From the NCBI GenBank assembly GCA_964016885.1, contig OZ024746.1, positions 31,000,001 to 31,064,000 of the forward strand: a DNA stretch of 64,000 nucleotides. The letters are read 5' to 3'. This DNA is from Eledone cirrhosa. Lineage: Eukaryota. Shown here one piece after another: positions 1,480 through 59,371 of the stretch (its first letter is position 1; every line of letters starts with the position of its first letter). The position numbers and the translations under genes were made by a program. The notes under the pieces are model-generated. The model was given only the letters and a program-made list of their open reading frames with translations. It was not told the DNA's origin and did not search any database.

Positions 1480-1609
1480 ATATATATATATTTATATATA
1501 TAAACATATGCATATACATATATATATAAATTTTATTCTCTCCAACGTCGCCGCGAGCGGCACATCATCTGCATGATGTGGAAAATATTCCATCAGCATT
1601 GCCCAAATA

Positions 1610-1795
1610 ATTGTTTCTACTTTTGGCACAAGGCCAGCAATTACCCAGTGCATTACTGGTACTTTATTTTATCGACCCCGTAAGGATGAAAGGCAAAGTC
1701 AACCTCGGCGGGATTTGAACTCAGATCGTAAAGGGACGTAACTATGCTGGAAAGCATGGCGTCCGACCCTCTACCGATACTGCCAACCCACCGCC
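1610..1795 (-). mobile_element. tRNA-derived SINE (young family), TSD GCCCAAATAAT
   Basis: A box TGGCAGTATCGG, B box GTTCAAATCC, central GCCTTTCATCCTTACGGGGTCGATAAAAT domain, ATT tail; TSD at 1601-1611 and 1793-1803. Confidence 0.9.
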
Positions 1796-2078
1796 CAAAT
1801 AATGTTGGCATTATATAAGGCTTGGGCCCCGTGCTATCCACCCACAACAAAAATCACACTCGCATCTCATAAGAACAGTACCGCACAATTATTTCACTTC
1901 AATTGCCTCCGCTCTCTTTAAGATTACACCAAAAAACATTAAAACAGAAACAGAACCCTTAAAGTTGAAGAAATCCCGGATAAACCTCCTACACCCGGAT
2001 ATGTCTTGAAAGACTTCGCCAGGTGGTACTATTAAGTTAGACATGGCCTGGGCCAATACTGGCTTAAAGCTATCAAAG

Positions 2079-2256
<178 letters not shown>

Positions 2257-2377
2257 CTTTGATAGCTATATATATAACTTTGATATATATAACTTTGATC
2301 ATATTTTTTTAAATTGTAATGTAATGCTCAGAAATATTTTCTTAGAGCTTAAGAATTGTATTTGACTTCTAAATTGA

Positions 2378-2555
<178 letters not shown>

Positions 2556-2921
2556 TCAATTTAGAAGTCAAATACAATTCTTAAGCTCTAAGAAAATATT
2601 TCTGAGCATTACATTACAATTTAAAAAAATATGATCAACACTAGTGTGTTTTTTTGTCAAAATGACAATAATTTTTTAGCCAGATAGAAATACCTTAATT
2701 CAAGTACATATAGACCGCCTGTATCGATCTAGAAAATATTAAATATTAAGTCTATACTTACAGGCGTAAAATGGCAAGTATAGACTTAATATTTAATATT
2801 TTCTAGATCGATACAGGCGGACTATATGTACTTGAATTAAGATATTTCTATCTGGCTAAAAAATTATTGTCATTTTGCAAAAAAACACATTAGTGTTGAT
2901 CATATTTTTTTAAATGTAATG

Positions 2922-2956
<35 letters not shown>

Positions 2957-3012
2957 TGGTAACACAACAGTTAGTTCACCATACCGAATATATATATATA
3001 TATATAATATTT

Positions 3013-3203
3013 AATTGTTCCTTCTTTTTGGCACAAGGCCACGAATTAACCAGTGTATTACTGGTACTTTATTTTATCGACCCCGTAAGGATGAAAGGCA
3101 AAGTTAACCTCGACGGGATTTGAACTCAGAATGGCAAGGGCCGTAACTCTATGCGTCAAAGCATGGCGTCCGACCCTCTACCGATACTGCCAATTCACCG
3201 CCC
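3013..3203 (-). mobile_element. Same SINE family, diverged copy
   Basis: Alignable by eye to 1610-1795. Confidence 0.85.
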
Positions 3204-3927
3204 TTATATTATATATATATATAATATATAATATATTGTAGAATATATATTTATGCATATGTACAGTATATGTTATATAAGAGAATATATACAGAATATA
3301 TTTATACATGTATACAGTATATGTTAAATAAAAGAATATATACGGTATGTATTATATATATCTCTATATATACAGTATATGTTATATAAAAGAATATATG
3401 CAGAATATTTTATATATTATTATATATACAGTATATATTATGTAAGAGAATATATACAAAATATTTTTTATATATGTATATATACAGTATATGCTCTATA
3501 AGAGAATATAGACGGTTTAAATACATAAGTCTTCGATATACGAATGGCTAGATGTCAGCAGAAGGGCACCCAGGAGTCATGAACTGGATGCGACCCGGCG
3601 CCCTTAGAGTGTAAGAAGTTAAAGGCCGAAACACTCGCTTGAGGCGGGATTTCTTCTCTGAAGACCTTCTGCTGAACACCTCTCCTGAGAATTTCTAATC
3701 ATTATATATATACAGAATCTGTTATATAAGAGAATATATCGAGAATATTTTATATAAACGTCGGTGTAAAACAATGTTATTATATACGTCAACTCGAAAC
3801 CTCAATCTATCCAACCTATCAGCAGAAGGGCCGAAATACTTGTTGCTTGAGATAGATAGATAGAGGGAGAGAGAGATGTGCTCTTAATATATCGATATAT
3901 ATATCTATCTAACTATCTCTCTCTCCC

Positions 3928-4036
<109 letters not shown>

Positions 4037-5332
4037 GAAACAAAATGGCGTAGGACAGAACAAAGGAGAGGCACAGAAACAAAGAAAGAAATCCCCAGTC
4101 ACTGAAGAGGTCACAGAGTGTGTGACGAAAGAACTATGACAATATATAAACAACTATCTGGTTGTGGAACCAACCAACCAACCAGAAATTTATAAATTTA
4201 TAAATTTATTATAAATTTATTATAATAAATTGAAGTGAAACAACTGGTGCGTGTGTTTCTTATTGGCAACATGACCCTCCAAAGTATAACAATATATATA
4301 TGGTGTATAAAGATATTAAGAACCCACACACATCCCTATATAGACAAACTTGTCTATTTAACACAATCCATTTCCTCTTTTCATCTGTCGCCGTCGAGAT
4401 CTCAGGCGTCCTTAGTACAGCTGACCTGCTCCGTAAAATCGGAATGAAAGCAGCCCGTCCGAGGAAGGAGCCCCGCAAGGTGGGGTGGCTGTTGTGGCGG
4501 GTGTCGCTGGCCATTTTCCGCGGCAATCCCTTTGCCGTTTTATCCACAGGGCGCAGCCGAAACACCACTCTGACTTAGGTGTAGTCTATCACTCTCAACC
4601 CTTCTTCCTTTCTTTCGTTACTTAACACTCCTAGTTCTTACCCTCCCTTTCCTCTCATTTAACTATGAAATTGTAAGAGAGGGACACATTTTTAAGATTA
4701 TACGAATATAAATACTTTTTTTCTTTAACTTTCTTTAACTTTTTTTTATTCAACACATGAAGGCATTTAGAGAGAAACACTTCGATGTAAATAAATGTTT
4801 AAAAAAGCATTCATAAGTTCTTGTCATCACTGATAGTTCACCTTACTGAGGTGTCAGGTGATGCTCGTGGGGGTGTCTGGTTATTTCACCCGTTGTAATG
4901 CTGCAAGCATGTTTGCTTGCCTAAAAGTGTTTAGCTAACCCCTAAGATGTGAGGTGCGACCGATTATCGCACTTGGTGGTGAATTTCCCCCATCCCCACT
5001 TTTTTCTTTCCTTTATCATTATTGTTCAATGACTTACACAGATGCTATTCATTAATATAATTAGAGTTCAGATATCATTAAAGTTTACCATTCATTGGCT
5101 AGTTCGTGCTGTTACCGTTGGCCACAACACACACCCATACATACATTAATACATAGATTTTCCTGCTCTACACGTAAATCATTAGACTAGCAAAATAACA
5201 AAGAATCTAATTTATGCGAAGCTGGAAACATTGTAGAAACTCTGGTTGAATTGAAAAGTTGGTTAGTACTTTTTGTTCTATATTCTCTGTTTGTCACAGC
5301 TGCGAACAGGCTTGCCAGATTGGGATACTAAT

Positions 5333-5479
<147 letters not shown>

Positions 5480-5480
5480 T

Positions 5481-5512
<32 letters not shown>

Positions 5513-5594
5513 GTTATTCCGGGTTGAATCGGAGGTAACCACAGTAAGTAAGGTACTCAATACATTGCAGAGTATAAAAGTTTTAATATAGATG

Positions 5595-5645
5595 AGATTC
5601 TACAGGACTAGAACTGTTTCATTCTTTAGAAATCATCAGGAATCT
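5595..5645 (-). ncRNA. Type I hammerhead ribozyme, family A
   Basis: AGAUUC-CUGAUGA-U UUC uaaa GAA U-GAAA-CAG uucuaguc CUG-UA^GAAUCU: 6-bp stem I, complete core, GUA cleavage triplet. Confidence 0.8.
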
Positions 5646-5790
5646 GGGTATCAAAAAATAAGTATGGTATTTATAGGTCTCTACAAGTGGTATGAGAGGG
5701 TGGGGAGTGGGATGGGTGTAGGTCATTGGTTGATAGAAAAGGGAATTCATTAAAAGCTAATTCTACAAAGCTATAGTTTATTTTTATTTA

Positions 5791-5861
<71 letters not shown>

Positions 5862-6054
5862 GGTATGGGTTTAACAGAACAAGTTTATTAGGAACTTTCA
5901 ATGTTTATTTTTTAGGTTTCGCCGTCTGAAGAGCTATCTAAACTGATAGTTCTCAGTAAAATATGTATAACGGAGTTTTAAATAAACCTGAACTAACTGA
6001 ATATGGCCTCCGATCTTGAAAGGGCCGGAGCTCATCCGTCGGGTTCCTCAATCT

Positions 6055-6184
<130 letters not shown>

Positions 6185-6324
6185 GTCAGGACCCCGAACA
6201 GTTCGGATCTAGCTGTCGAAACGGCCGGAGCTCAGCCGTTTTTATATTACCCACTCTACTACCCTAAGTATCGAGTACTCTGGTGCGTTATGGTTCAGCT
6301 GGTAACTTATCACACATTCTTTGT

Positions 6325-6364
<40 letters not shown>

Positions 6365-6442
6365 ACAAAGAACTATCCAGCGAATTTCAACCGTTGGGGT
6401 TGTCTTTTTTCCGGGTCAATATTTATTTCTAAAACAAATCTG

Positions 6443-6510
6443 TATTTTATCTGATGAAAGCGTACCATATTTTTTACCTTGGTCGCCCTTGAAATATATA
6501 TAATAAAATA
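6443..6510 (+). ncRNA. Type I hammerhead ribozyme, family B
   Basis: TATTTTAT-CTGATGA-AAG...CTT-GAAA-T ATAT A-TA^ATAAAATA: 8-bp stem I, palindromic minimal stem III. Confidence 0.72.
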
Positions 6511-6662
6511 ATTATGGTTTTATAAATATAGTTTCCATTTATTGATGTATTGTATATTTACTCCACTAAATTGTTGAGTGGTTTATATCAGTTATAAAAA
6601 TGTTTAAGCTTGTTGAATCCCAACAAATTAAATATAACCTCTGCATATATATATATATATAT

Positions 6663-6868
6663 AACAAAGGAAATGTGGTAAGGAACCAGATGGACCATAA
6701 CGCACCAGAGTACTCAATACTTAGAGTAGTAGAGTGGGAAATAGGAAAAAGTATGACCCCGACGGCAGAGCTCAAGCCGTTTCGACGGCTATTTCTGGAC
6801 TAAATTCAATTTAGTCCAAAAATAGCCGTCGAAACGGCTTGAGCTCTGCCGTCGGTGTCATACTTTTT

Positions 6869-6916
<48 letters not shown>

Positions 6917-7105
6917 AAAAGGTATGACTCCGACGGCAGAGCTCAAGCCGTTTCGACGGCTATTTAAGTCCAGAAATAGCCGTCGAAACGGCTTGAGCTC
7001 TGCCGTCGGGGTCATACCTTTTCCTATTACCTACTCTACTACCCTAAGTATTGAGTACTCTGGTGCGTTATGGTCCATCTGGTTCCTTACCACAATTCCT
7101 TAGTT
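6663..7105. mobile_element. Short (TA)n-flanked repeat family G as two inverted pairs; other copies near 6215-6320, 27961-28053, 29791-29930, 30221-30305, 31286-31600, 37081-37273
   Basis: Recurrent GAAACGGCTTGAGCTCTGCCGTCGGGGTCATAC...CTTACCACATTTCCTTCG followed by (TA)n. Confidence 0.8.
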
Positions 7106-7486
7106 ATATATATATATATACGTATATAAATATGTGTTGGGGTAGAGGTGTATAGGCAACAGATACTAAACTCCGTGGTCATCAGCCGTAGAAATGTCTA
7201 GACAGTTTCGAACCTTACTTGTACGACTTAAATATAGTCCATTTAATTCTATACCCGTAAGTTTTATTTTGTCAGATACTGTGACCCTAGATGGACCAAC
7301 ACTACCCGCGGTAGAAGTCGATATATAGTTATAGAGGTATTTATTTACGCTTTAATTTATATTTTTAATTATCGTGTCTATAGTCTGCCTTTCATAGGTT
7401 ATAGATTCCATACACTGGTGGTTTTTACCTGTTTTATTAATAGCGCACTGTATCTCTCTCTAGTGTGTTACCTTTTCAACATATTG

Positions 7487-7583
<97 letters not shown>

Positions 7584-7661
7584 AAACGTAAACAACAAAG
7601 CAAATAACACAGTACAGAGAAGAAATATATTAGTTTAACGCTTGATATAATAGGAAGTGAT

Positions 7662-7697
7662 TCTTTACGTTTCGGACATTAGTCATTCATCAGAAGA
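7662..7697 (-). ncRNA. Minimal hammerhead ribozyme, family E
   Basis: TCTT-CTGATGA-AT GAC taat GTC C-GAAA-CG-TA^AAGA; stem III reduced to palindromic ACGU. Confidence 0.6.
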
Positions 7698-7968
7698 TAG
7701 AATGTAATATAAAAGATGAAATAGAAAGATAGACATGGAGAAGAAGAAGGAACGAAAAACTAATTCTTTTTAGAAAAAGCACGAGTGCATTCAGTCATAT
7801 TTTATTGATTTATGAACTTTAAAAAAACAATTACTTAATTTTTAAATGCATCAATTTGATCTAGATTGCAGGGTGAGAACCTGGTGAAATATAATCCCTA
7901 ACCGGGAACAGTAATCGGCAAATGTTTGGAAAATACTGGATTTGTAAATAACCTAAAGTGATCTTATA

Positions 7969-12692: not shown

Positions 12693-12843
<151 letters not shown>

Positions 12844-13052
12844 ATGTATTGAGTACCTTACTTACTGTGGTTACCTCCGATTCAACCCGGAATAACGTGT
12901 ATATATATATATATATATATAAGCAAAGAGATATTTAATTTGTTGGTAATTCCACAAATATATTTATAACAGATTCGAAGCACTCTACAAGTTTTCTGGA
13001 GTATAATATCAATGATATTAATAAATGGAAACTATATTTATAAAACCATATT

Positions 13053-13113
13053 TATTCTATTATATATATTTCAAGGGTACCAAAACTTTGGTACGCTCTC
13101 ATCAGATAAAATA
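13053..13113 (-). ncRNA. Type I hammerhead ribozyme, family B (inverted partner 13217-13277 has GAAA>GTAA)
   Basis: TATTTTAT-CTGATGA-GAG C GTACCAAA gt TTTGGTAC C CTT-GAAA-TATATA-TA^ATAGAATA. Confidence 0.75.
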
Positions 13114-13497
13114 CAAAATTTGTTTTATAAATAGTGACATACCCAGGAATCAGACTTTAACAGTTCTGGTTAAGGTCTGATTCCTGGGTATGTCACTATT
13201 TATAAAACAAATTTTGTATTTTATCTGATGAGAGCGTACCAAAGTTTTGGTACCCTTGTAATATATATAATAGAATAAATATGGTTTTATAAATATAGTT
13301 TCCATTTATTAATATCATTAATATTATACTCCAGAAAATCTGTCGAGTGCTTCGAATTTGTTATAAATATATTTGTGGAATTACCAACAAATTAAATATC
13401 TCTTTGCTTATATATATATGTGTGTGTGTGTGTTATATATGTATATATATATATATATATATATTATATATTGTATATATATATTATATATATATAT

Positions 13498-13628: not shown

Positions 13629-13683
<55 letters not shown>

Positions 13684-13684
13684 G

Positions 13685-13780
<96 letters not shown>
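13629..13780. repeat. (GATA)n microsatellite, about 38 units
   Basis: Direct reading; one GATG variant unit. Confidence 0.97.
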
Positions 13781-14044
13781 TATTTCTTTTATTTGCCACT
13801 AGGGCATCAAAAGTGGGACAAGTACAAAGGGGGGAGTTTACACAAAAAGGCGTCCTCAATAAGGAGGAGGCAATAACAAAATATAAAAATAAAATAAGAT
13901 ATAACAAAAAATAACATTTTTAACAAAATCCTCAATAGAGAGGAGGCGCCTTGGGGGGTCGCACACACCCCCGAAAAAAGTGTGCAACCCTTCTCCTCAG
14001 GAGCACAGAGAAGGGGTGCTCCCTTGGTCTTTCATCTTCCTCAC

Positions 14045-17000
14045 CTATAGTCTGATGTAGAGTGAAGGCCCATTCACACGGGCCATTCTCGCCACTTTCA
14101 CCCATCTTTCATAGAAACGGCTGGGGTGCAGCACCTCTCTCTCCATCCTGATCCTTCTTCCGAAATGATATCGGAAGAAACGGACCAGTTGTTGGCCAGA
14201 GAGAAAGGTGCCCGACCTCAGTCCTTTCAGACGCGTCCACCATACAACCTCTTTCGCCATGGCTATTACGCACAGAAACACCGCCTCTGCTTCATCTTTG
14301 AAGGGGGGAGGCGGCTTGATCATTACAATAGACTCGGTGGTCAACCGGATCGGTCCCACCCTTGACAGCAGTTGTTCGACATAGCCCCACAGATCGGCTA
14401 CGCCCGAGCAGTGTACTAATGCGTGTGCAACGGTTTCCTCGTCGCACACGCATCTGGGACAGATCTTTTTGGCGGGGTCCCTACCCGGGCGCCCGTGTCT
14501 GTAGAGCCTTTCTCGAACGGGTAAAGCCCCTCGGTAGCACTGCCAGGCCAGGGACTTCTGGAAGTTGTCCATAGGTCCCGGGCTGAATGTCCTACCGAAA
14601 AGGCTGGCCAGTTCGTCCTCCTCCATGTCTAGGGCTTCTCCGAGGGCGTCGTCGCACCTGCTGCGTACCAGCCCTCTATAGAATGTTGCGGTGGAGTCTC
14701 CACTGATAACCGGATCCGCCTGCCAGAGGGCGGTGAGCGCCTGGGCACACTCAGTGTGCCAGGCGCCCAGTTTTCTCGGTCTTTGCTTGACCCAGGATTG
14801 CAGCTCGGTGAGTGAGACGAGTCTGGGAAAGGTTCGTCTCACAAACGAGGCCCACACCGGTTGTCCGGTGAGGAATACGTAGAGGTGCCGTAGCCTTAAT
14901 GCGTGTTTACGCATCATTAGCCACGGCATCCCCAGCCCTCCTTTCGAAGGGTGTTGACAGCAGATGGATCTCCTCACCATAGGAGCCCGCCTCTTCCAAA
15001 GGAATTGGAAGAGCGCGCGCTCCATCTTGGTGAGGGTTTCCCTTGGGCAGGGCACTACGGTCAGGCGGTAGTAGATGACGGACGCTATGTAGGTGTTCGC
15101 CACCTCCGCCCGACCTTTCAGGGATAGTTTGCAACTGGCCCACTTCTGGGTCAGTGCAAACACTCTGTTCGTAACCTCCGCCCAGTTTTTCTCCACCTGG
15201 AGGTCCGGTCCGAACCAGACCCCGAGCAACTTCACCGGGCCCTCCGTCCAGCGTCCGACGACGCTATCGGAGGGCATCGGTCTGCCCCTCCACGTGCCGA
15301 GTTGCAAACCGATCGACTTGTCCCGGTTCAGCTTAGCCCCTGTGAACTTTTCGTACTCCTCCAGTAAGGTGCCGACCGCCTCGATTTCGGAGGCCGTCGA
15401 CACCATTACTGTCACGTCATCGGCGTAGGCCGACACCGCTTTCCGCAATCCCGGTTCCAAAGGGATGCCCTGCAACAACTCCAACTTCCGCAGTAGTGGC
15501 TCGAGAGTCAATACATACAGAAGGGAGGAGAGAGGGCACCCTTGTCGGATGGACCGCGCGATTTTGAACGGCTCCGAGAGGTAGCCGTTCACCTTGACCC
15601 TAGAGCAGATGCGGCTGCTGTGCATAGCAGTGATCCAGCCCCTGAAAACGGCTCCGAAGCCTGCCGCCGCTAGCACCGCATCCAGGTAACCATGGTCGAC
15701 CCTATCGAACGCCTTAGATTGATCCAAGTTGATCAGAGCCCCACCAAAGCCGGGTTCGTTCCCAACCCTCTCTATGATGTATCGCATGAGGTGGAGGTTG
15801 TCATGGATGGACCTGGACGGGATAGCGCATGTCTGCGCATCTCCCACCAGGTTGCCCACGACAAGCGCCAACCTCTTTGCTAGCACCTTGGCCAAAATCT
15901 GTAACTCTGTATTTAGCAGTGTTATGGGCCTGAAGTTACTTATTTCGTCCCCCTTGTTCTCGTCCTTCCTCACTAGCGTGACTACGCCCTTGGTCACAGT
16001 ACAGGGAATTCTCCCGTTCTGTTGCCAGTTGCAGTAGACCGCCTCGAGGAGATCGGGGAACAAGTCCGGCATAGCTAGATATAATTCGTAAGGAAGACCA
16101 TCGAGACCCGGGGATTTGCGTTTGCCGCATTGGCTCAGCACGTCCTCTATCTCAGCGGCCGAAATCGGCTCCTCGCAGGACTTCGCCTCCCTGTCCGAGA
16201 GGCGCGGCAGGCCGTCGAGGTATGGACCGAAGTCCACGTTCCCAACCGGCTCCCCGCCCCTCCCGAACAGTCGGGCAAAGTGCCTTTGAAAGGCCTCACA
16301 CATCTGCTTAGGCTCAAGAATCGCCCGTCCATCCAGGTCTCGCAAAGACCGGATGGTGGATTTAGTTCCACTGTTGGCCTCTGTCACGCGGGCCCAGCTA
16401 ACAGCTTTGGTCCCCTCGTTCCCTAGAGCACGTATTTTACTTCGGACAACGCAGCCTTCGTGCTTCGCGTCGAAAAACTGGCTCAAAGCCGTTCTCGACG
16501 CTAGCACTCTGGCCACGTCGCCGCTTCTAATTGCCTCTTCTACTCTATCTATTAGCTCCCTTTCCTTCCTATTCCTATCCGCAGCTAGAACCTTACTAAA
16601 TTCTATCGAGACTACTCTAATCTCTCTCTTTAGAGATACCCACCACCTGCTGTTGACGATCGCTCCAGTCAACCGTTCCTTAACTAACGTACTAATCCGA
16701 TTCCTGTAGGCTCTACTTGCCGGCAAGGACAAGTTGAGCTTCCAGTAACCGGGGCCCTGTCTATGAGTTCTGTCAAGGTTGACCATGCAGGTCACTAATT
16801 TGTGGTCTGAATAGCCAACAATGCGCATTTTTGGACAACTTAAAAAGTCCTTATCCTTAATTCTAACTAAGAACCTATCTAGGTACGACCTAGATGATCC
16901 GCTACGATTTGCCCAAGTCCAGGTTGGCGCAGTCGGAAAATCTAGTCGATATCTATCGGCCAGGTCAAATCGACCGATTAACCCTTTGAGGCTATTACAC

Positions 17001-17482
17001 CCCTCTCTATCGGGGCAGGCCCCTACGTAGTCCCAGCGTGCATCTAGGATACCATTCCAGTCCCCCACTAATAGCAAGGAGCGGGACGTCCCTAGAAAAG
17101 TTTCCAGACGATGGAAGAAGTCCGGCCGCATTGACCCGAAAGGGCCGTAGGCGGCTACCAACCTAAACGCTCCGCCTTTACCACTGCCAAGGTCCAGAAC
17201 CACTAGTCGACCCTCCGGGTCCAAATGTACCATCTGTGTTGCGAGACCCAGATGTTTTTGCAGCAGAACGACAACTCCACCCCCACCTCCAGGCTGACAG
17301 AGAGATGCGTGCATCTCAAAGTCATCAAAGGTGGGGGCCAGCTGTCGCACGCTGCTGATCCGGGCCTCGCAAATAACCATCACATCTATACGTTGTGACC
17401 TGAGGTCATTTAGAAGCATTGCTTGCTTCCAAGTTGAGCCCAGGCCACGCGCATTTAAACAGCCTACTCTTAGCATAGCCAT
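14045..17482 (-). CDS. ORF2 polyprotein: APE endonuclease, reverse transcriptase, C-terminal CCHC zinc finger
   Basis: EN motifs LNARGL, GDWN, YLDRFLV, YSDHKLV. RT motifs KSPGLDG, NFRPITLLN, LDQSKAFDRV, RQGCPLS, YADD. Finger CPRC..ETVAHALVHC. Uninterrupted frame; first ATG at 17482 (frame open from 17506). Confidence 0.95.
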   Translation of the reverse strand: MAMLRVGCLNARGLGSTWKQAMLLNDLRSQRIDVMVICEARISSVRQLAPTFDDFEMHASLCQPGGGGGVVVLLQKHLGLATQMVHLDPEGRLVVLDLGSGKGGAFRLVAAYGPFGSMRPDFFHRLETFLGTSRSLLLVGDWNGILDARWDYVGACPDREGCNSLKGLIGRFDLADRYRLDFPTAPTWTWANRSGSSRSYLDRFLVRIKDKDFLSCPKMRIVGYSDHKLVTCMVNLDRTHRQGPGYWKLNLSLPASRAYRNRISTLVKERLTGAIVNSRWWVSLKREIRVVSIEFSKVLAADRNRKERELIDRVEEAIRSGDVARVLASRTALSQFFDAKHEGCVVRSKIRALGNEGTKAVSWARVTEANSGTKSTIRSLRDLDGRAILEPKQMCEAFQRHFARLFGRGGEPVGNVDFGPYLDGLPRLSDREAKSCEEPISAAEIEDVLSQCGKRKSPGLDGLPYELYLAMPDLFPDLLEAVYCNWQQNGRIPCTVTKGVVTLVRKDENKGDEISNFRPITLLNTELQILAKVLAKRLALVVGNLVGDAQTCAIPSRSIHDNLHLMRYIIERVGNEPGFGGALINLDQSKAFDRVDHGYLDAVLAAAGFGAVFRGWITAMHSSRICSRVKVNGYLSEPFKIARSIRQGCPLSSLLYVLTLEPLLRKLELLQGIPLEPGLRKAVSAYADDVTVMVSTASEIEAVGTLLEEYEKFTGAKLNRDKSIGLQLGTWRGRPMPSDSVVGRWTEGPVKLLGVWFGPDLQVEKNWAEVTNRVFALTQKWASCKLSLKGRAEVANTYIASVIYYRLTVVPCPRETLTKMERALFQFLWKRRAPMVRRSICCQHPSKGGLGMPWLMMRKHALRLRHLYVFLTGQPVWASFVRRTFPRLVSLTELQSWVKQRPRKLGAWHTECAQALTALWQADPVISGDSTATFYRGLVRSRCDDALGEALDMEEDELASLFGRTFSPGPMDNFQKSLAWQCYRGALPVRERLYRHGRPGRDPAKKICPRCVCDEETVAHALVHCSGVADLWGYVEQLLSRVGPIRLTTESIVMIKPPPPFKDEAEAVFLCVIAMAKEVVWWTRLKGLRSGTFLSGQQLVRFFRYHFGRRIRMEREVLHPSRFYERWVKVARMARVNGPSLYIRL

Positions 17483-17506
17483 GTTGGTGGTGAAGAGAAA
17501 AGGCAC

Positions 17507-19288
17507 TTACCTCTCTGCGTCCCGGGTATCGGGCTGCACAATTTCCATTAGGGTGGGGGATGGGTTGTTGGGTGGGGTGGTGGTTTGTGGAAGTGTGGGG
17601 GCATCAGTGTGTTGTGTGGTTGGGGAGCTTGGAGTTGTGAGGGTGTTTGGGGAGGGGGTGGGATAGTTTTTTAGGAGGACTCGGTTAATGGGCCCGACGC
17701 AGGGGGGACCCACGTCCTCTTTAAAATTGTTTTTTAAAGTTTTATAGGTGTCCTGTGGGGCCTTAATCATTTTGAGGTGGGGGAAATCCCCTGCCTGGGT
17801 GAAGTTAGGCCCTTGTGTTTTTATTAGATTGTTGTTGTACACAATGTTTAACAGTTTTTTGTTTCTTGTATTTATGTATGTGTATGCATGTTTTTGTTTT
17901 TGTGTGGTGTTTTTTGTTTGCTGTTGTGAGCTCTTTTGTGTTGGTGTCAGTGTTATGTTTTGGGGAGGGGTTTTTTTCATTTGTGTGTCTGAGGTGTGTT
18001 TTCTTTTTTTTCTTTTGATTGTGTGGAAGTGCTCCTCCTCGTCTGACGACGAACTAGGGTCATCTTCCGCGTTGGAGGGGAGGGGTATATTTTCGGGTTG
18101 TGTTTGCGGTACGGGTGTTTTGGAAATTGTTTTTGTTTTTTGAGTGGAGGGGATGGGTTGGACATTGTTTTGTTTTGGTTTGAGCTGTGGTGGTTGTTTT
18201 TGTAGTGGTTGTTGTGGTGATTGTGTTGGTTGTGCAGTTGTTGGTGGTGTAGGCAGGATTGGGGTTTTCTTATTAAGTTGGGGACAGACAGCCCTCAGGT
18301 GACCTCTGGTTCCGCAGAGGTAACACGAGGGCCGTCTACCCTCAACGGTAATGTTGATGAAGGTTAGATCATCCAGTATGACGCGTTCAGGGATCTGGGC
18401 GATCCTTTCGGGCCTCATTTGAACTACAAGTTCGAGGCTCGTTCCACTGAACGCGTCACCCGATGCCTTTCCCATGGACACCAGCATGTCATCCTCCAGG
18501 TCCAGAAAACCTGTCAAAACCCACCATATGTCCATAATCGGCAGGATGGTGTGGATTTTTATTTTTTGTGTTCTTCTACCCATGTACGTAGGGTAGAAGG
18601 TGTATGCGGTGGATGTGATTGGTTTGATGGACAGTTTCACTGCTGTGTCCCTGTCCTTCATGAGAATGGATAGACTCCCGTAGAGTCTATCCTTCTGAAT
18701 GAAGGTGATGTCCTTCATGACGTCTTTTAAAACCAGCTCTATCTCGCTCTGTGATGGTTGAGCTGGTTTTTTACTTTTGTTCGAGATTGTCCTAAACATG
18801 ACCGTGTTTAGGAGTCTCTGGCTTTTTAGTTCCGGGGGGGAATGGATTGTGAATGAACCATTTTCCCCGTACACTATATATTTTTTCGCATCCGCCAGTA
18901 GCTCCTTCGCTTTTGTTATATCTACTGGCAGATAGTCGAGGGTTTTCCTTGTCGTCTCGGCGAAGGAGAAATTTTGTTTGTTTGTGTTGTTGTTGTCGTT
19001 GGTGGTGTTGTTGTTATCATTGTTGTTGTTGTCACCGTTATTGGTCTTGTTGTTGTTATTGTTATTGTTATTGGTGTTGTTTTCTACCGTCGCATTGTTG
19101 TTGTTGTTGCTGTTGGTTCTTTGGGTTGTTGCCATGGTAACGTCAAGTTGTCGGTTAACAGGTGGAAAGAATTCTTCCTCTGGCTGACCTATCTTCTTGA
19201 CCTCTGCTACTGTGACAGTGGCAGGGGGAAGCTGTAAGTTCATCTTCCCCTTTCCTCCTTCGAATTTTGGTGAAGAAGCTTCGGCCAT
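17507..19288 (-). CDS. ORF1 gag-like nucleic acid-binding protein (593 aa)
   Basis: CX2CX4HX4C knuckle CYLCGTRGHLRAVC, poly-Asn tract, basic KRKKRK stretch; lies directly upstream of ORF2. Confidence 0.9.
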   Translation of the reverse strand: MAEASSPKFEGGKGKMNLQLPPATVTVAEVKKIGQPEEEFFPPVNRQLDVTMATTQRTNSNNNNNATVENNTNNNNNNNNKTNNGDNNNNDNNNTTNDNNNTNKQNFSFAETTRKTLDYLPVDITKAKELLADAKKYIVYGENGSFTIHSPPELKSQRLLNTVMFRTISNKSKKPAQPSQSEIELVLKDVMKDITFIQKDRLYGSLSILMKDRDTAVKLSIKPITSTAYTFYPTYMGRRTQKIKIHTILPIMDIWWVLTGFLDLEDDMLVSMGKASGDAFSGTSLELVVQMRPERIAQIPERVILDDLTFINITVEGRRPSCYLCGTRGHLRAVCPQLNKKTPILPTPPTTAQPTQSPQQPLQKQPPQLKPKQNNVQPIPSTQKTKTISKTPVPQTQPENIPLPSNAEDDPSSSSDEEEHFHTIKRKKRKHTSDTQMKKTPPQNITLTPTQKSSQQQTKNTTQKQKHAYTYINTRNKKLLNIVYNNNLIKTQGPNFTQAGDFPHLKMIKAPQDTYKTLKNNFKEDVGPPCVGPINRVLLKNYPTPSPNTLTTPSSPTTQHTDAPTLPQTTTPPNNPSPTLMEIVQPDTRDAER

Positions 19289-19501
19289 TTAAAAAAATAT
19301 TGACTTTTCAACAAGAAAAAACTTTTTTTTTAACTATTTCGCCTAAAGGCGTAGAATATTTTGAGAGACTGACCAGATCAAAGTTTGACCTGGCAGTCCC
19401 TCTACAAAATGGTACAAAATTTAAAGTTATCAGACAAGAATTTCTATAGAAATTTAAACAGAACTTACTCAGCAAGTTATACGCGTGTGTCCATCCCAGA
19501 T

Positions 19502-19537
<36 letters not shown>

Positions 19538-19920
19538 TATTTCTTTTATTTGCCACTAGGGCATCAAAAGTGGGACAAGTACAAAGGGGGGAGTTTACAC
19601 AAAAAGGCGTCCTCAATAAGGAGGAGGCAATAACAAAATATAAAAATAAAATAAGATATAACAAAAAATAAAATTTTTAACAAAATCCTCAATAGAGAGG
19701 AGGCGCCTTGGGGGGTCGCACACACCCCCGAAAAAAGTGTGCAACCCTTCTCCTCAGGAGCACAGAGAAGGGGTGCTCCCTTGGTCTTTCATCTTCCTCA
19801 CCTATAGTCTGATGTAGAGTGAAGGCCCATTCACACGGGCCATTCTCGCCACTTTCACCCATCTTTCATAGAAACGGCTGGGGTGCAGCACCTCTCTCTC
19901 CATCCTGATCCTTCTTCCGA
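19538..19920 (-). mobile_element. 5'-truncated second copy (3' 383 bp) of the same retrotransposon
   Basis: Matches 13781-14163 with one substitution that I could see. Same 3' end into (TATC)n; GATA repeats again at 19921-19944. Confidence 0.95.
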
Positions 19921-20383
19921 GATAGATAGATAGATAGATAGATATATTGTAGGTGTGGAAAAGGAAAAAGGAGAACAGTGCTCAATCGGGAAGAGAGCAG
20001 AAATATTATATTATTTATTTATGTTCATACACAGAACAAAAGAGTTAGTCAAGGTATTTACCATACCTCCAGAATACAAGAGGCGTCAAATGTGTAGCCT
20101 AGGTGCTTATACACTGGTTTAAGCGCCTGAAGAAAGACCATAAATTTGATGCCTCTTGTACTCTGGAGGTATGGTAAATATTGGGCCTTGAAAGTTTGGG
20201 TAGCACTTTTGTTCTGCGTATAATATAATATAATATCGAGCTGATGATCCGTTACGGTGAAACAAATTTTCCTGGGAAATAGTTAACTAACTGATGTAGG
20301 ACTACTTATCTATCTATCTATATATATTAAAATAACAGATTAAAGTTTAAGCAAAGAATCGCTGCTTTCAAATTTATTATTAT

Positions 20384-20428
<45 letters not shown>

Positions 20429-20556
20429 AGTTATTCCGAGTTGAATCGGAGGTAACCACAGTAGGTAAGGTACTCAATACATTGCAGAGCATAAAAGTTT
20501 TAATATAGATGAGATTCTACAGGACTAGAATTGTTTCATTCTTTAGAAATCATCAG

Positions 20557-20605
20557 GATTCCTGATGATTTCTAAAGAATGAAACAGTTCTAGTCCTGTA
20601 GAATC
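20557..20605 (+). ncRNA. Type I hammerhead ribozyme, family A (inverted partner upstream)
   Basis: Same core and stems as the 5595-5645 copy. Confidence 0.78.
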
Positions 20606-20619
20606 TCATCTATATTAAA

Positions 20620-20738
<119 letters not shown>

Positions 20739-37464: not shown

Positions 37465-37651
37465 ACAATAAGATGTTGTAGTAGTATATCTACAATAAGA
37501 TGTTGTAGTTGTATATCTACAATAAGATGTTGTAGTAGTATATCTACAATAAGATGTTGTAGTTGTATATCTACAATAAGATGTTGTAGTTGTATATCTA
37601 CAATAAGATGTTGTAGTTGTATATCTACAATAAGATGTTGTTGTAGTTGTA
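37465..37651. repeat. 27-bp tandem repeat, about 7 units
   Basis: ACAATAAGATGTTGTAGTTGTATATCT. Confidence 0.92.
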
Positions 37652-37740: not shown

Positions 37741-38578
37741 CATGACTGGCTGGGAGAGGTATCTAATACCCTTCATATATAGCTGGTATGACATGTCAGA
37801 CTAACAGAAGTATCTATTACCACTTATATATAGCTGGTAAGCCATGAAAGAGGAGAGGTATATAAACCTTATATATAAAGCTGGTATGACTGGATGAGAT
37901 ATCTAAATATCCCTTATATATAGCTAGTATGCCATGACAGGCTGTGGAAGGTATTTAATATCTCTTATATATAAATCATAACAGACTGAGAGAGGTATTT
38001 AATACGCGTTATAAATAACTGGTATGTCATGACAGACTGAGAGAGTTATCCAATACCCTATATATAACTGGTATGTCACGGCTAACCGGGAGCGGTATCT
38101 AATACCCCTTATATATAACTGGTATATCACGACTAACCGGGAGCAGTATCTAATACCCCATGTCACGACTAACCGGGAGCGGTGTCTAATACCCCTTATA
38201 CATAACTGGTATGTCACGGCTAACCGGGAGCGGTATCTAATACCCCTTATATATAACTGGTATGTCACGACTAACCGGGAGCAGTATCTAATACCCCTTA
38301 TATATAACTAGTATGTGACGACTAACCGGGAGCGGTGTCTAATACCCCTTATATATAACTAGTATGTCACGACTAACCGGGAGCGGTATCTAATACCCCT
38401 TATATATAACTGGTATGTCACGACTAACCGGGAGCAGTATCTAATACCCCTTATATATAACTAGTATGTCACGACTAACCGGGAGCGGTGTCTAATACCC
38501 CTTATATATAACTGGTATGTCACGACTAACCGGGAGCGGTATCTAATACCCCTTATATATAACTGGTATGTCATGACA
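37741..38578. repeat. 51-bp minisatellite, homogeneous on the right and degenerate on the left
   Basis: ATGTCACGACTAACCGGGAGCGGTATCTAATACCCCTTATATATAACTGGT. Confidence 0.92.
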
Positions 38579-41314: not shown

Positions 41315-51232
<9,918 letters not shown>

Positions 51233-58500: not shown

Positions 58501-58939
58501 ACAAAATTGGGTAGAGAGGACCTTTTTGTCTAGTTGAGTACATAACATCTCTAGTACTGGTGCCATGATAAAATACACTAAATACAGTGTGTAAAGTGGT
58601 AGTGTTACTACTATAAGATATACCCAGAACACTCTAAAGTGATAGTACTTGTGCCATGATAAAATACACTCAGTATATACTGTAAACTAGTTGGTATTTG
58701 GAAGGGGTCCAACTTTAGGAACCCTGTCAAAAGAGGAACATACAAGCATGGTTTCTTGACCCATCTAGGAATGTCTGTAACTGATTGTGACTGCAACAAC
58801 CCATCTAACCCATGCCAACTTGGAAAACAGATGTAAAATGATAATTAATACGTAAAAGGTTTACTGGTATTTGATATGTCTGTGTTTTACATCTTACTGT
58901 AGCAAGTCATATCTTGTGGTTTCGTTCTTCCTTTCCTTC

Positions 58940-59371
58940 CATATGAATACAGGATATGAGGGCTGCCTCACCCACATGAATACAGGACATGAGGGCTGCC
59001 TCACCCACATGGGTACAGGACATGAGGGCTGCCTCACCCACATGGGTACAGGACATGAGGGCTGCCTCACCCAACTGGATACAGGACATGAGGGCTGCCT
59101 CACCTGCATGAGTACAGGACATGAAGGCTGCCTCACCCTACTGGATACAGGACACGAGGGCTGCCTCACCTGCATGAGTACAGGGCATGATGGTTGCCTC
59201 ACCCTACTGGATACAGGACACGAGGGCTGCCTCACCTGCATGAGTACAGGACATGATGGTTGCCTCAGCCACATAAGTACAGGACATGAGGGCTACCTCA
59301 CCATCATGGGTACAGGACATGAGGACTTCTTCATCCACATGAGTACATGACATGAGGGCTGCTTCACCCAC
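58940..59371. repeat. 33-bp minisatellite, about 13 units
   Basis: CATGGGTACAGGACATGAGGGCTGCCTCACCCA. Confidence 0.92.

What the first reader, a model, noticed from the sequence alone, without database searches (positions are those of the whole stretch)
13629..19944. Intact Tx1-like retrotransposon that appears to target (GATA)n, with a tandem second insertion
Seen: the full element and a 383-bp 5'-truncated copy end at the same base, directly into (TATC)n with no poly(A) tail. All three junction zones are GATA tracts, although (TA)n is far more common here. Both ORFs are intact and the copies differ at about one base. Established: some Tx1-group elements are microsatellite-specific (Kibi on TC, Koshi on TTC repeats). 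Inference: a recently active, GATA-specific family that could also regenerate its own target by duplication and so build tandem arrays. I do not know of a described family matching it, but cannot check.
Basis: partly seen in the sequence, partly recalled or inferred. Interest (0 to 1): 0.85.

Follow-up and report, generated by a model that had tools for sequence, protein, structure and literature searches.

The report
Octopod retrotransposon that targets GATA repeats
This is an intact copy of a young jumping-gene family, likely from an octopus-like animal, with about 2,000 copies that mostly sit in one orientation inside GATA microsatellites and often stack head to tail; repeat-targeting elements of this kind are known, but an older sister family in the same genome sits in TTA repeats instead, which would let one test how such elements switch targets.

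Summary
Confirmed. Window 13781-~19500 (minus strand) is a 5.72-kb L1/Tx1-type LINE with both ORFs open. A 383-bp 5'-truncated copy (19538-19920) lies directly upstream, and GATA tracts mark all three junctions.

The genome holds 1,932 exact 3' ends. Of 100 copies taken in positional order, 70 have TATC repeats at the 3' junction and 66 at the 5' junction (48 of 78 truncated copies), against 0.21% background; none has the reverse orientation. About 15% sit in (TA)n, so targeting is strong but not strict. Thirteen copies show 12-21-bp target duplications (shuffled mean 0.7), so the tract is a pre-existing target, not a tail. The two window copies differ at one base that marks separate sublineages, which argues for two insertions.

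New here: the two bases before the repeat are inherited with the element lineage, and a sister family (endonuclease about 60% identical, nearly the same hairpin loop) sits in (TTA)n. Microsatellite-targeting Tx1 elements are known; I found no GATA target in print, but Repbase could not be searched. The scan noted this family before on other DNA.

The parts
13629..13780 (+). (GATA)13-GATG-(GATA)24 tract, read as (TATC)n downstream of the full-length element; runs on into a long (TA)n tract
13781..13782 (-). Terminal dinucleotide TA between AGAAA and the TATC repeat; varies among copies (TA 39, CA 32, CT 24, TC 3, CC 2 of 100) and follows element lineage
13783..14044 (-). 3' UTR (262 nt) ending AATAAA-AGAAA (AATAAA at 13788-13793); no poly(A)
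14045..17482 (-). ORF2, 1145 aa: APE-type endonuclease (23-227), reverse transcriptase (512-755, YADD), C-terminal zinc-binding region (976-1032)
17507..19288 (-). ORF1, 593 aa: Asn-rich N-terminus, two predicted RRM-like domains plus one CCHC knuckle (321-337), Pro/Thr/Gln-rich C-terminus
   Evidence: zf-CCHC E 0.051, weak; pLDDT 95; tandem-RRM proteins, E 5e-5 to 1e-4
19289..19501 (-). 5' UTR (about 210 nt). The first base is uncertain within 19497-19501 because the start (A)TCTGGG overlaps the TATC repeat
19502..19537 (+). (GATA)9 tract between the two copies
19538..19920 (-). Second, 5'-truncated copy (end of ORF2, 3' UTR and TA; 383 bp); one mismatch to the full copy, carrying the common family base
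19921..19944 (+). (GATA)6 tract at the truncated 5' junction of the second copy
19946..20045 (-). Flank: end of an unrelated older repeat whose paralogs run into CA, TA, CATA or CT microsatellites

Best explanation
This is an intact member of a young L1/Tx1-type LINE family whose copies sit mostly inside (TATC)n tracts in one orientation with 12-21-bp duplications, likely because its endonuclease nicks the GATA strand of a pre-existing tract and reverse transcription is primed there. Shown: the anatomy, copy number, both-flank and strand bias, duplications starting at TAT, and an inherited terminal dinucleotide. Inferred from established target-primed reverse transcription: the nick leaves a 3' end ...(G)ATA, and a second nick about 17 bp away makes the duplication. 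Inferred: the RNA runs past AATAAA-AGAAA-NN into at least UAU(C), pairs with the nicked strand and is copied from there, so no poly(A) is inserted. Each insertion leaves TATC on both sides, so later copies can land next to earlier ones. The window's pair most likely arose so, by two separate insertions; their order cannot be told.
For: Copy number and 3' ends: 1,932 exact 3' 30-mers; with a 29-mer, 1,655 continue NN-TATC and 239 NN-TATA. Flanks of the first 100 of those places on contig C1, chosen without regard to flank: 3' flank TATC 70, TA 15, other 15; 5' flank TATC 66, TA 11, other 23; 62 TATC on both sides; 0 GATA on the sense strand; background 0.21% TATC and 5.3% TA; TAT follows NN in 98 of 100. 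Flank classes agree on the two sides in 83 of 100 (shuffled mean 51, maximum 67), and 13 of 100 show non-periodic duplications of 12-21 bp, median 17 (shuffled pairing mean 0.74, maximum 4). In L125 the duplication includes the first bases of the downstream element (…TATCTCTGG), showing insertion next to an existing copy. All 8 neighbour pairs within 7 kb are on the same strand (0.4 pairs expected), all 8 differ in 5' end and 5 in NN. NN follows the tree of 81 copies: 15 changes vs 40.9 shuffled, 0 of 200 as low. The window's full copy carries a base seen in 1 of 71 scorable C1 copies but in 21 other loci, whereas copy 2 carries the common base (69 of 71). Endonuclease and RT catalytic residues align with human L1 ORF2p.
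Against: No empty site was seen: read laying skipped the repeat junctions. 19 of 100 copies have no TATC directly after NN and 12 have only one unit; 23 of 100 5' flanks are neither TATC nor TA. One copy (L132) ends in an A-rich tail inside an AAT repeat. Duplications cannot be measured in pure tracts, including all three in the window. L107/L108 (same truncation point) and the array L050-L052 (same junction, 5,764-bp spacing) look like DNA-level duplications, so the 100 copies are not all independent. The NN tree is weakly resolved (bootstrap not settled; 4 of 76 inner branches well supported). How much specificity comes from the endonuclease and how much from RNA pairing is untested, and no expression data were obtained.
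Confidence: 0.78

Rival explanations
1. Target choice is set mainly by the RNA: the endonuclease nicks loosely at TAT-containing repeats, and read-through TATC at the transcript's 3' end selects GATA tracts by base pairing.
For: The inherited NN means the RNA reaches the repeat boundary. TAT follows in 98 of 100 copies, including (TA)n and non-repeat sites. The (TTA)n sister family has almost the same hairpin loop (WTWTNRIGSSRSYLDR vs WTWANRSGSSRSYLDR). PMC6007223 (passages) proposes a similar role of 3' repeats for RTE elements.
Against: The two endonucleases differ at about 40% of residues elsewhere. Xenopus Tx1L endonuclease alone nicks almost exclusively at its target, and the loop alone does not transfer specificity (PMC1950540, passages). 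How many TATC units the RNA holds is unknown.
Confidence: 0.25
2. TATC is an element-encoded tail (and head) added at insertion, not a target.
For: The RNA end is likely to include some repeat. The full-length 5' end overlaps TATC by a few bases. 32 of 100 target tracts follow a related element's 3' end.
Against: 48 of 78 truncated copies have TATC upstream. Copies in satellites, (TA)n or unique DNA (L069, L073, L075, L099, L107) gain no TATC, and their duplications have the same length as in TATC sites. Most background TATC tracts show no such 3' end beside them (by eye).
Confidence: 0.05
3. The second copy in the window is an assembly artefact or a local DNA duplication of the first copy's end.
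For: The copies are 380/381 identical and have the same NN. DNA-level duplications exist elsewhere (L050-L052, L107/L108). No read spans the junctions.
Against: The one difference is a lineage marker: copy 1 has the rare variant shared with 21 loci elsewhere, copy 2 the common base. Copy 2 has its own truncation junction into TATC. Same-strand neighbours with different 5' ends are common (8 of 8 pairs).
Confidence: 0.06
4. Insertion is near random and copies merely survive or accumulate in microsatellite-rich DNA.
For: (TA)n flanks are enriched 2- to 3-fold (11-15% vs 5.3%).
Against: About 300-fold enrichment for the rarer repeat, 0 of 100 in the reverse orientation, fixed phase, and very young copies.
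Confidence: 0.02

Closest known systems
Kibi (TC)n and Koshi (TTC)n of teleosts; crocodilian Tx1 families on (TTCC)n/(TTTC)n (PMC4494074: passages and section 15; PMC3812793: passages)
   Same: APE-endonuclease LINE inserted inside a microsatellite; its RT joins fish and turtle Tx1-type proteins at SH-aLRT 96; it passes that paper's criterion of more than 20% of flanks.
   Different: Target unit TATC/GATA; likely mollusc host; RT only 34-37% identical to the fish proteins and in a separate branch (support 99) with unnamed proteins, so targeting may have arisen independently (untested); ORF2 1145 aa vs about 1,320 aa in the fish proteins.
Tx1L of Xenopus laevis (PMC1950540: passages)
   Same: Same broad clade; a sequence-specific APE endonuclease is the precedent for the inferred nick.
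   Different: Tx1L targets a DNA transposon (Tx1D), not a simple repeat. No direct sequence comparison was possible.
Waldo (ACAY)n, Mino (AC)n and Dong (TAA)n elements (PMC3812793: passages)
   Same: Non-LTR elements inside microsatellites; Dong uses the same repeat unit as the (TTA)n sister family found here.
   Different: Other clades (R1 and R4, recalled); none is listed with GATA.
L1-Tx1 families counted in the Octopus vulgaris repeat annotation (PMC13282606: passages and a term search of its one supplement)
   Same: 13 recently active L1-Tx1 families (421 insertions) are reported in an octopus; this family or a relative may be among them.
   Different: No target-site analysis in what I saw ('target site' 0 hits; GATA and TATC 0 hits in the supplement); sequences not compared.
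Human L1 ORF2p (PDB 8sxt and others)
   Same: EN-RT layout with aligned catalytic residues (E 1.4e-48, 169 bits).
   Different: Half the score of the Tetraodon protein (335 bits); L1 has a poly(A) tail and a short T-rich consensus.

Membership tests
L1/Tx1-type non-LTR retrotransposon | ORF2 with N-terminal APE endonuclease, RT and C-terminal zinc region | tested here: met
L1/Tx1-type non-LTR retrotransposon | Separate upstream ORF1 with RNA-binding domains (RRM plus CCHC type recalled for Tx1) | tested here: met
   CCHC hit weak
L1/Tx1-type non-LTR retrotransposon | Fixed 3' end, variable 5' truncation, target-site duplications | tested here: met
   78 of 100 copies 5'-truncated; 13 informative duplications of 12-21 bp
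Tx1 clade | RT groups with Tx1 rather than L1 | tested here: inconclusive
   Groups with fish proteins named Tx1 (SH-aLRT 96, quick tree, 54 rows, plant L1 outgroup) and scores 335 vs 169 bits against human L1. No vertebrate L1 or Xenopus Tx1L row was in the tree, and the fish names are automatic annotations. Likely Tx1.
Microsatellite-specific Tx1 (Kibi/Koshi-like) | One repeat type in more than 20% of flanks, on both sides | tested here: met
   62 of 100 copies TATC on both sides; criterion from PMC4494074
Kibi/Koshi lineage | Target (TC)n, (TTC)n, (TTCC)n or (TTTC)n | tested here: not met
   Target is (TATC)n
Kibi/Koshi lineage | RT nested with Kibi/Koshi | tested here: inconclusive
   The query lies outside the fish and turtle branch (support 100). 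That P0307 (Q76IM5, Tetraodon pol-like) is a Kibi or Koshi element is recalled, not shown by any search.
Microsatellite-specific Tx1 (Kibi/Koshi-like) | Endonuclease nicks the repeat specifically | not testable with these tools
   needs an in vitro assay
Described Repbase/Dfam family | Sequence match to a curated consensus | not testable with these tools
   no such library on hand

The most novel reading that the evidence does not exclude
In this octopod lineage the target repeat is programmed and inherited through the element's own read-through RNA end rather than fixed by the endonuclease. A chance landing in another repeat could found a sister family with a new target, as the (TATC)n and (TTA)n families with nearly identical endonuclease hairpin loops and a shared TAT core suggest. 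That would be an RNA-steered target switch in a LINE, arising apart from Kibi and Koshi.
Probability: 0.2. Interest if true: 0.8.

Novelty: new variant of a known kind. Interest (0 to 1): 0.52.

Why it matters
A 2013 review (PMC3812793, passages) calls the mechanism of microsatellite targeting by APE-type elements not well understood. Here one genome holds a young family with intact copies on (TATC)n and a close, older sister on (TTA)n (endonuclease 57-61% identical, RT about 68-74% in the best-preserved copies). That is a natural pair for separating the roles of endonuclease and RNA end. The family also splits and multiplies GATA tracts, which bears on microsatellite turnover and on marker reliability in these animals. 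The basic phenomenon, a Tx1 element living in a microsatellite, is known.

Tried and rejected
Read laying on four runs each: only short-read contigs were offered and the repeat junctions were skipped, so there is no verdict on empty alleles or on the second copy. Sequencing-run search: no RNA holder listed, which says nothing on expression; 12 of 24 listed runs, from 9 coded organisms, held 0.2 or more of the words. Metagenome scan: 80 loci, all distant (24-43% identity), none with TATC tracts listed, so the target of the 40-50% unnamed relatives is unknown. Paralogs of the 5' flank gave no usable empty site. The first junction count for the sister family was discarded because the reference copy had a break. 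In the redo many 'truncated' 5' junctions are alignment breaks inside decayed copies, so the 6 of 26 ATT count there is not a measure of targeting. The endonuclease search of the own genome returned only 99-100% copies. The RNA fold of the 3' end had no control and is not used. The count of 42 of 48 diverged 3' ends followed by TATC is biased, because most were found beside copies of this family. Literature: ten searches; the four that required GATA or TATC (8, 41, 66, 94) returned no paper. The supplement of PMC4494074 could not be read and its tree figure, which lists targets, is not held; either might name a GATA target. Kojima and Fujiwara 2004 was not read.

Full report
Observation. On the minus strand, window 13781 to about 19500 holds a 5.72-kb element: a 5' UTR of about 210 nt, ORF1 (593 aa), a 24-nt spacer, ORF2 (1145 aa) and a 262-nt 3' UTR. 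Pfam finds an APE-type endonuclease, an RT and a C-terminal zinc region in ORF2. A model of ORF1's central 227 residues (pLDDT 95, 47-row alignment) matches tandem-RRM proteins, and a weak CCHC knuckle follows. A second copy at 19538-19920 repeats the last 383 bp with one mismatch. GATA tracts of 37, 9 and 6 units lie at the three junctions; both copies end AATAAA-AGAAA-TA-(TATC)n without poly(A). The nearest named RT is from Argonauta hians (67%), so the host is likely an octopod; this is an inference.

Family size and age. The 3.0-Gb genome has 1,932 exact matches to the last 30 bases and 362 to a 5' 32-mer; both are lower bounds. I fetched the first 100 of the 1,932 places (all on contig C1, positional order). 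Median identity to the window copy is 99.2%, and 61 are at 99% or more. 22 are full-length, 7 of these with both ORFs open by my length cut-offs. Nine other loci match the last 1,886 bp at 100% (these were the best hits, so selected).

Target test. Genome-wide, a 29-mer end continues NN-TATC 1,655 times and NN-TATA 239 times. In the 100 copies the 20-nt 3' flank held two or more TATC units in 70, (TA)4 in 15 and neither in 15; the 5' flank in 66, 11 and 23. Truncated copies gave 48 of 78 and full-length 18 of 22. None had GATA on the sense strand. Background from 20 stretches of 10 kb at round-number positions was 0.21% for TATC and 5.3% for TA, so enrichment is about 300-fold for TATC and 2- to 3-fold for TA. 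Thirty further 5' ends from a separate search gave 27 TATC, 1 TA and 2 other. Targeting is therefore strong, strand-specific and leaky.

Target, not tail. The two flanks agree in class in 83 of 100 copies (shuffled mean 51, maximum 67). Thirteen copies show a duplication that runs out of the repeat into other sequence: 12-21 bp, median 17, counted from the TAT after NN, against 0.74 for shuffled pairings. Two of the 13 (L107, L108) are probably one event, and three or four lie in satellites where a match is easier. Copies in satellites, (TA)n or unique DNA gain no TATC. Against a strict reading: 19 copies have no TATC directly after NN, 12 have one unit, and L132 ends in an A-rich tail inside an AAT repeat.

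The RNA end. The two bases between AGAAA and TAT are TA 39, CA 32, CT 24, TC 3 and CC 2. A pure TATC target would supply TC. On a tree of the last 900 bp of 81 copies (the 19 shorter ones left out, NN excluded), NN needs 15 changes against 40.9 when shuffled (0 of 200 as low). The tree is weakly resolved, but the clustering shows NN is mostly inherited. I infer that the transcript reaches at least the repeat boundary and that priming occurs by pairing of UAU(C) with the nicked ...ATA end, as proposed for other LINEs (PMC6007223, passages).

Tandem arrays. Eight of 99 neighbour gaps are under 7 kb (0.4 expected), all on the same strand. All eight pairs differ in 5' end and five in NN. 32 of 100 copies start within 250 bp of a related 3' end, against 8 of 1,560 background windows. 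In L125 the duplication includes the first bases of the downstream element. For the window, the single difference separates a rare variant (1 of 71 scorable C1 copies, but 21 other loci among the best hits) from the common base in copy 2 (69 of 71). Two insertions are therefore more likely than a duplication. Some arrays elsewhere (L050-L052, L107/L108) do look like DNA-level duplications. No read evidence was obtained.

Relatives in the same genome. A second subfamily shares the RT and 3' half (98-99%) but has another 5' half (ORF1 region 65-78%, endonuclease region about 90%), apparently a recombinant, and is also mostly in TATC. A more distant family turned up in a background stretch (L161). 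It has the same kind of end (GTGGTTAATAAAGAAAG), 1,324 exact 3' ends, 1,133 of them followed by NN-TTAT. In the first 40 places, 37 have (TTA)n at the 3' side and 14 of 14 recognisably full-length copies have it at the 5' side (background 0.33%); truncated 5' junctions could not be called reliably. It is older (90-93% between six copies; no full ORF2 among the 40). Its endonuclease is 57-61% identical, and the hairpin loop implicated in target reading (PMC1950540, passages; located here by alignment to L1) differs at two residues.

Classification. In a quick RT tree of 54 rows rooted on plant L1, the query groups with the Argonauta protein and P0001 (support 100), then with unnamed proteins of about 50% identity (99), and that branch joins fish and turtle Tx1-type proteins at 96. 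The Tetraodon pol-like protein scores 335 bits against 169 for human L1. No vertebrate L1 or Tx1L row was available, so Tx1 membership is likely but not fully tested. The element lies outside the fish branch.

What is known. Microsatellite targets listed in PMC3812793 (passages) are ACAY, AC, TC, TTC and TAA; PMC4494074 (passages, section 15) adds TTCC and TTTC. PMC13282606 (passages, supplement term search) counts 13 recently active L1-Tx1 families in Octopus vulgaris without target analysis. PMC3747384 and PMC8869645 (passages) added nothing on GATA. Four searches requiring GATA or TATC found no paper; Repbase, Dfam and most subscription papers were out of reach. Earlier notes of this scan describe the same family on other DNA; they came after my analysis and are not counted as support.

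Verdict. The observation and the interpretation hold. This is a new variant of a known kind: a GATA-targeting, likely Tx1-clade family, with a TTA-targeting sister that makes the endonuclease-versus-RNA question testable. Interest 0.52.

Noticed in passing
L161 (G000:C2:150000001-150010000, minus strand, about locus 1600-7700); L301-L340: Older sister LINE family with the same style of 3' end that sits in (TTA)n on both sides; at least 1,324 copies; endonuclease about 60% identical to the GATA family.
   Followed up: partly
L066, L085, L091, L114, L126, L144, L099: Recombinant-looking subfamily: RT and 3' half 98-99% identical to the window element, ORF1 region 65-78% and endonuclease region about 90%; three copies have both ORFs open.
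   Followed up: partly
L050-L052 (G000:C3:217897500, 217903264, 217909028): Three full-length 5' ends at exactly 5,764-bp spacing with the same interrupted junction tract; likely DNA-level tandem duplication.
   Followed up: no
L107-L109 (G000:C1:108.72-108.83 Mb), L069, L075, L013: Copies inserted at TAT sites in minisatellite arrays without any TATC tract.
   Followed up: partly
L132: One copy of 100 ends in an A-rich tail right after CA, inside an AAT repeat; it may record a polyadenylated transcript.
   Followed up: no
L079 vs window 19920: An independent copy on C1 is truncated within about 3 bases of the same point as the window's second copy; possible truncation hot spot.
   Followed up: no
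window 12922-13410, about 20040-20180, 20490-20620: Near-perfect long palindromes next to (TA)n tracts, read by eye from the sequence; MITE-like or fold-back repeats.
   Followed up: no
window about 30378; L156, L172: Another repeat beginning TAGGGC… follows (TATC)3-4 in 4 of the 27 TATC tracts listed; possibly a second element with a GATA tail or target.
   Followed up: no
window 12842-12897, 20425-20485, about 22767: Short dispersed repeat flanked by (TA)n in both orientations.
   Followed up: no
window 37465-37641, 38073-38577, 58939-59371: Minisatellites of 27, 51 and 33 bp.
   Followed up: no
window 50240-51232 (-): 330-aa Ser/Arg-rich open frame, likely an exon of a host gene in which or near which the element lies.
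   Followed up: no
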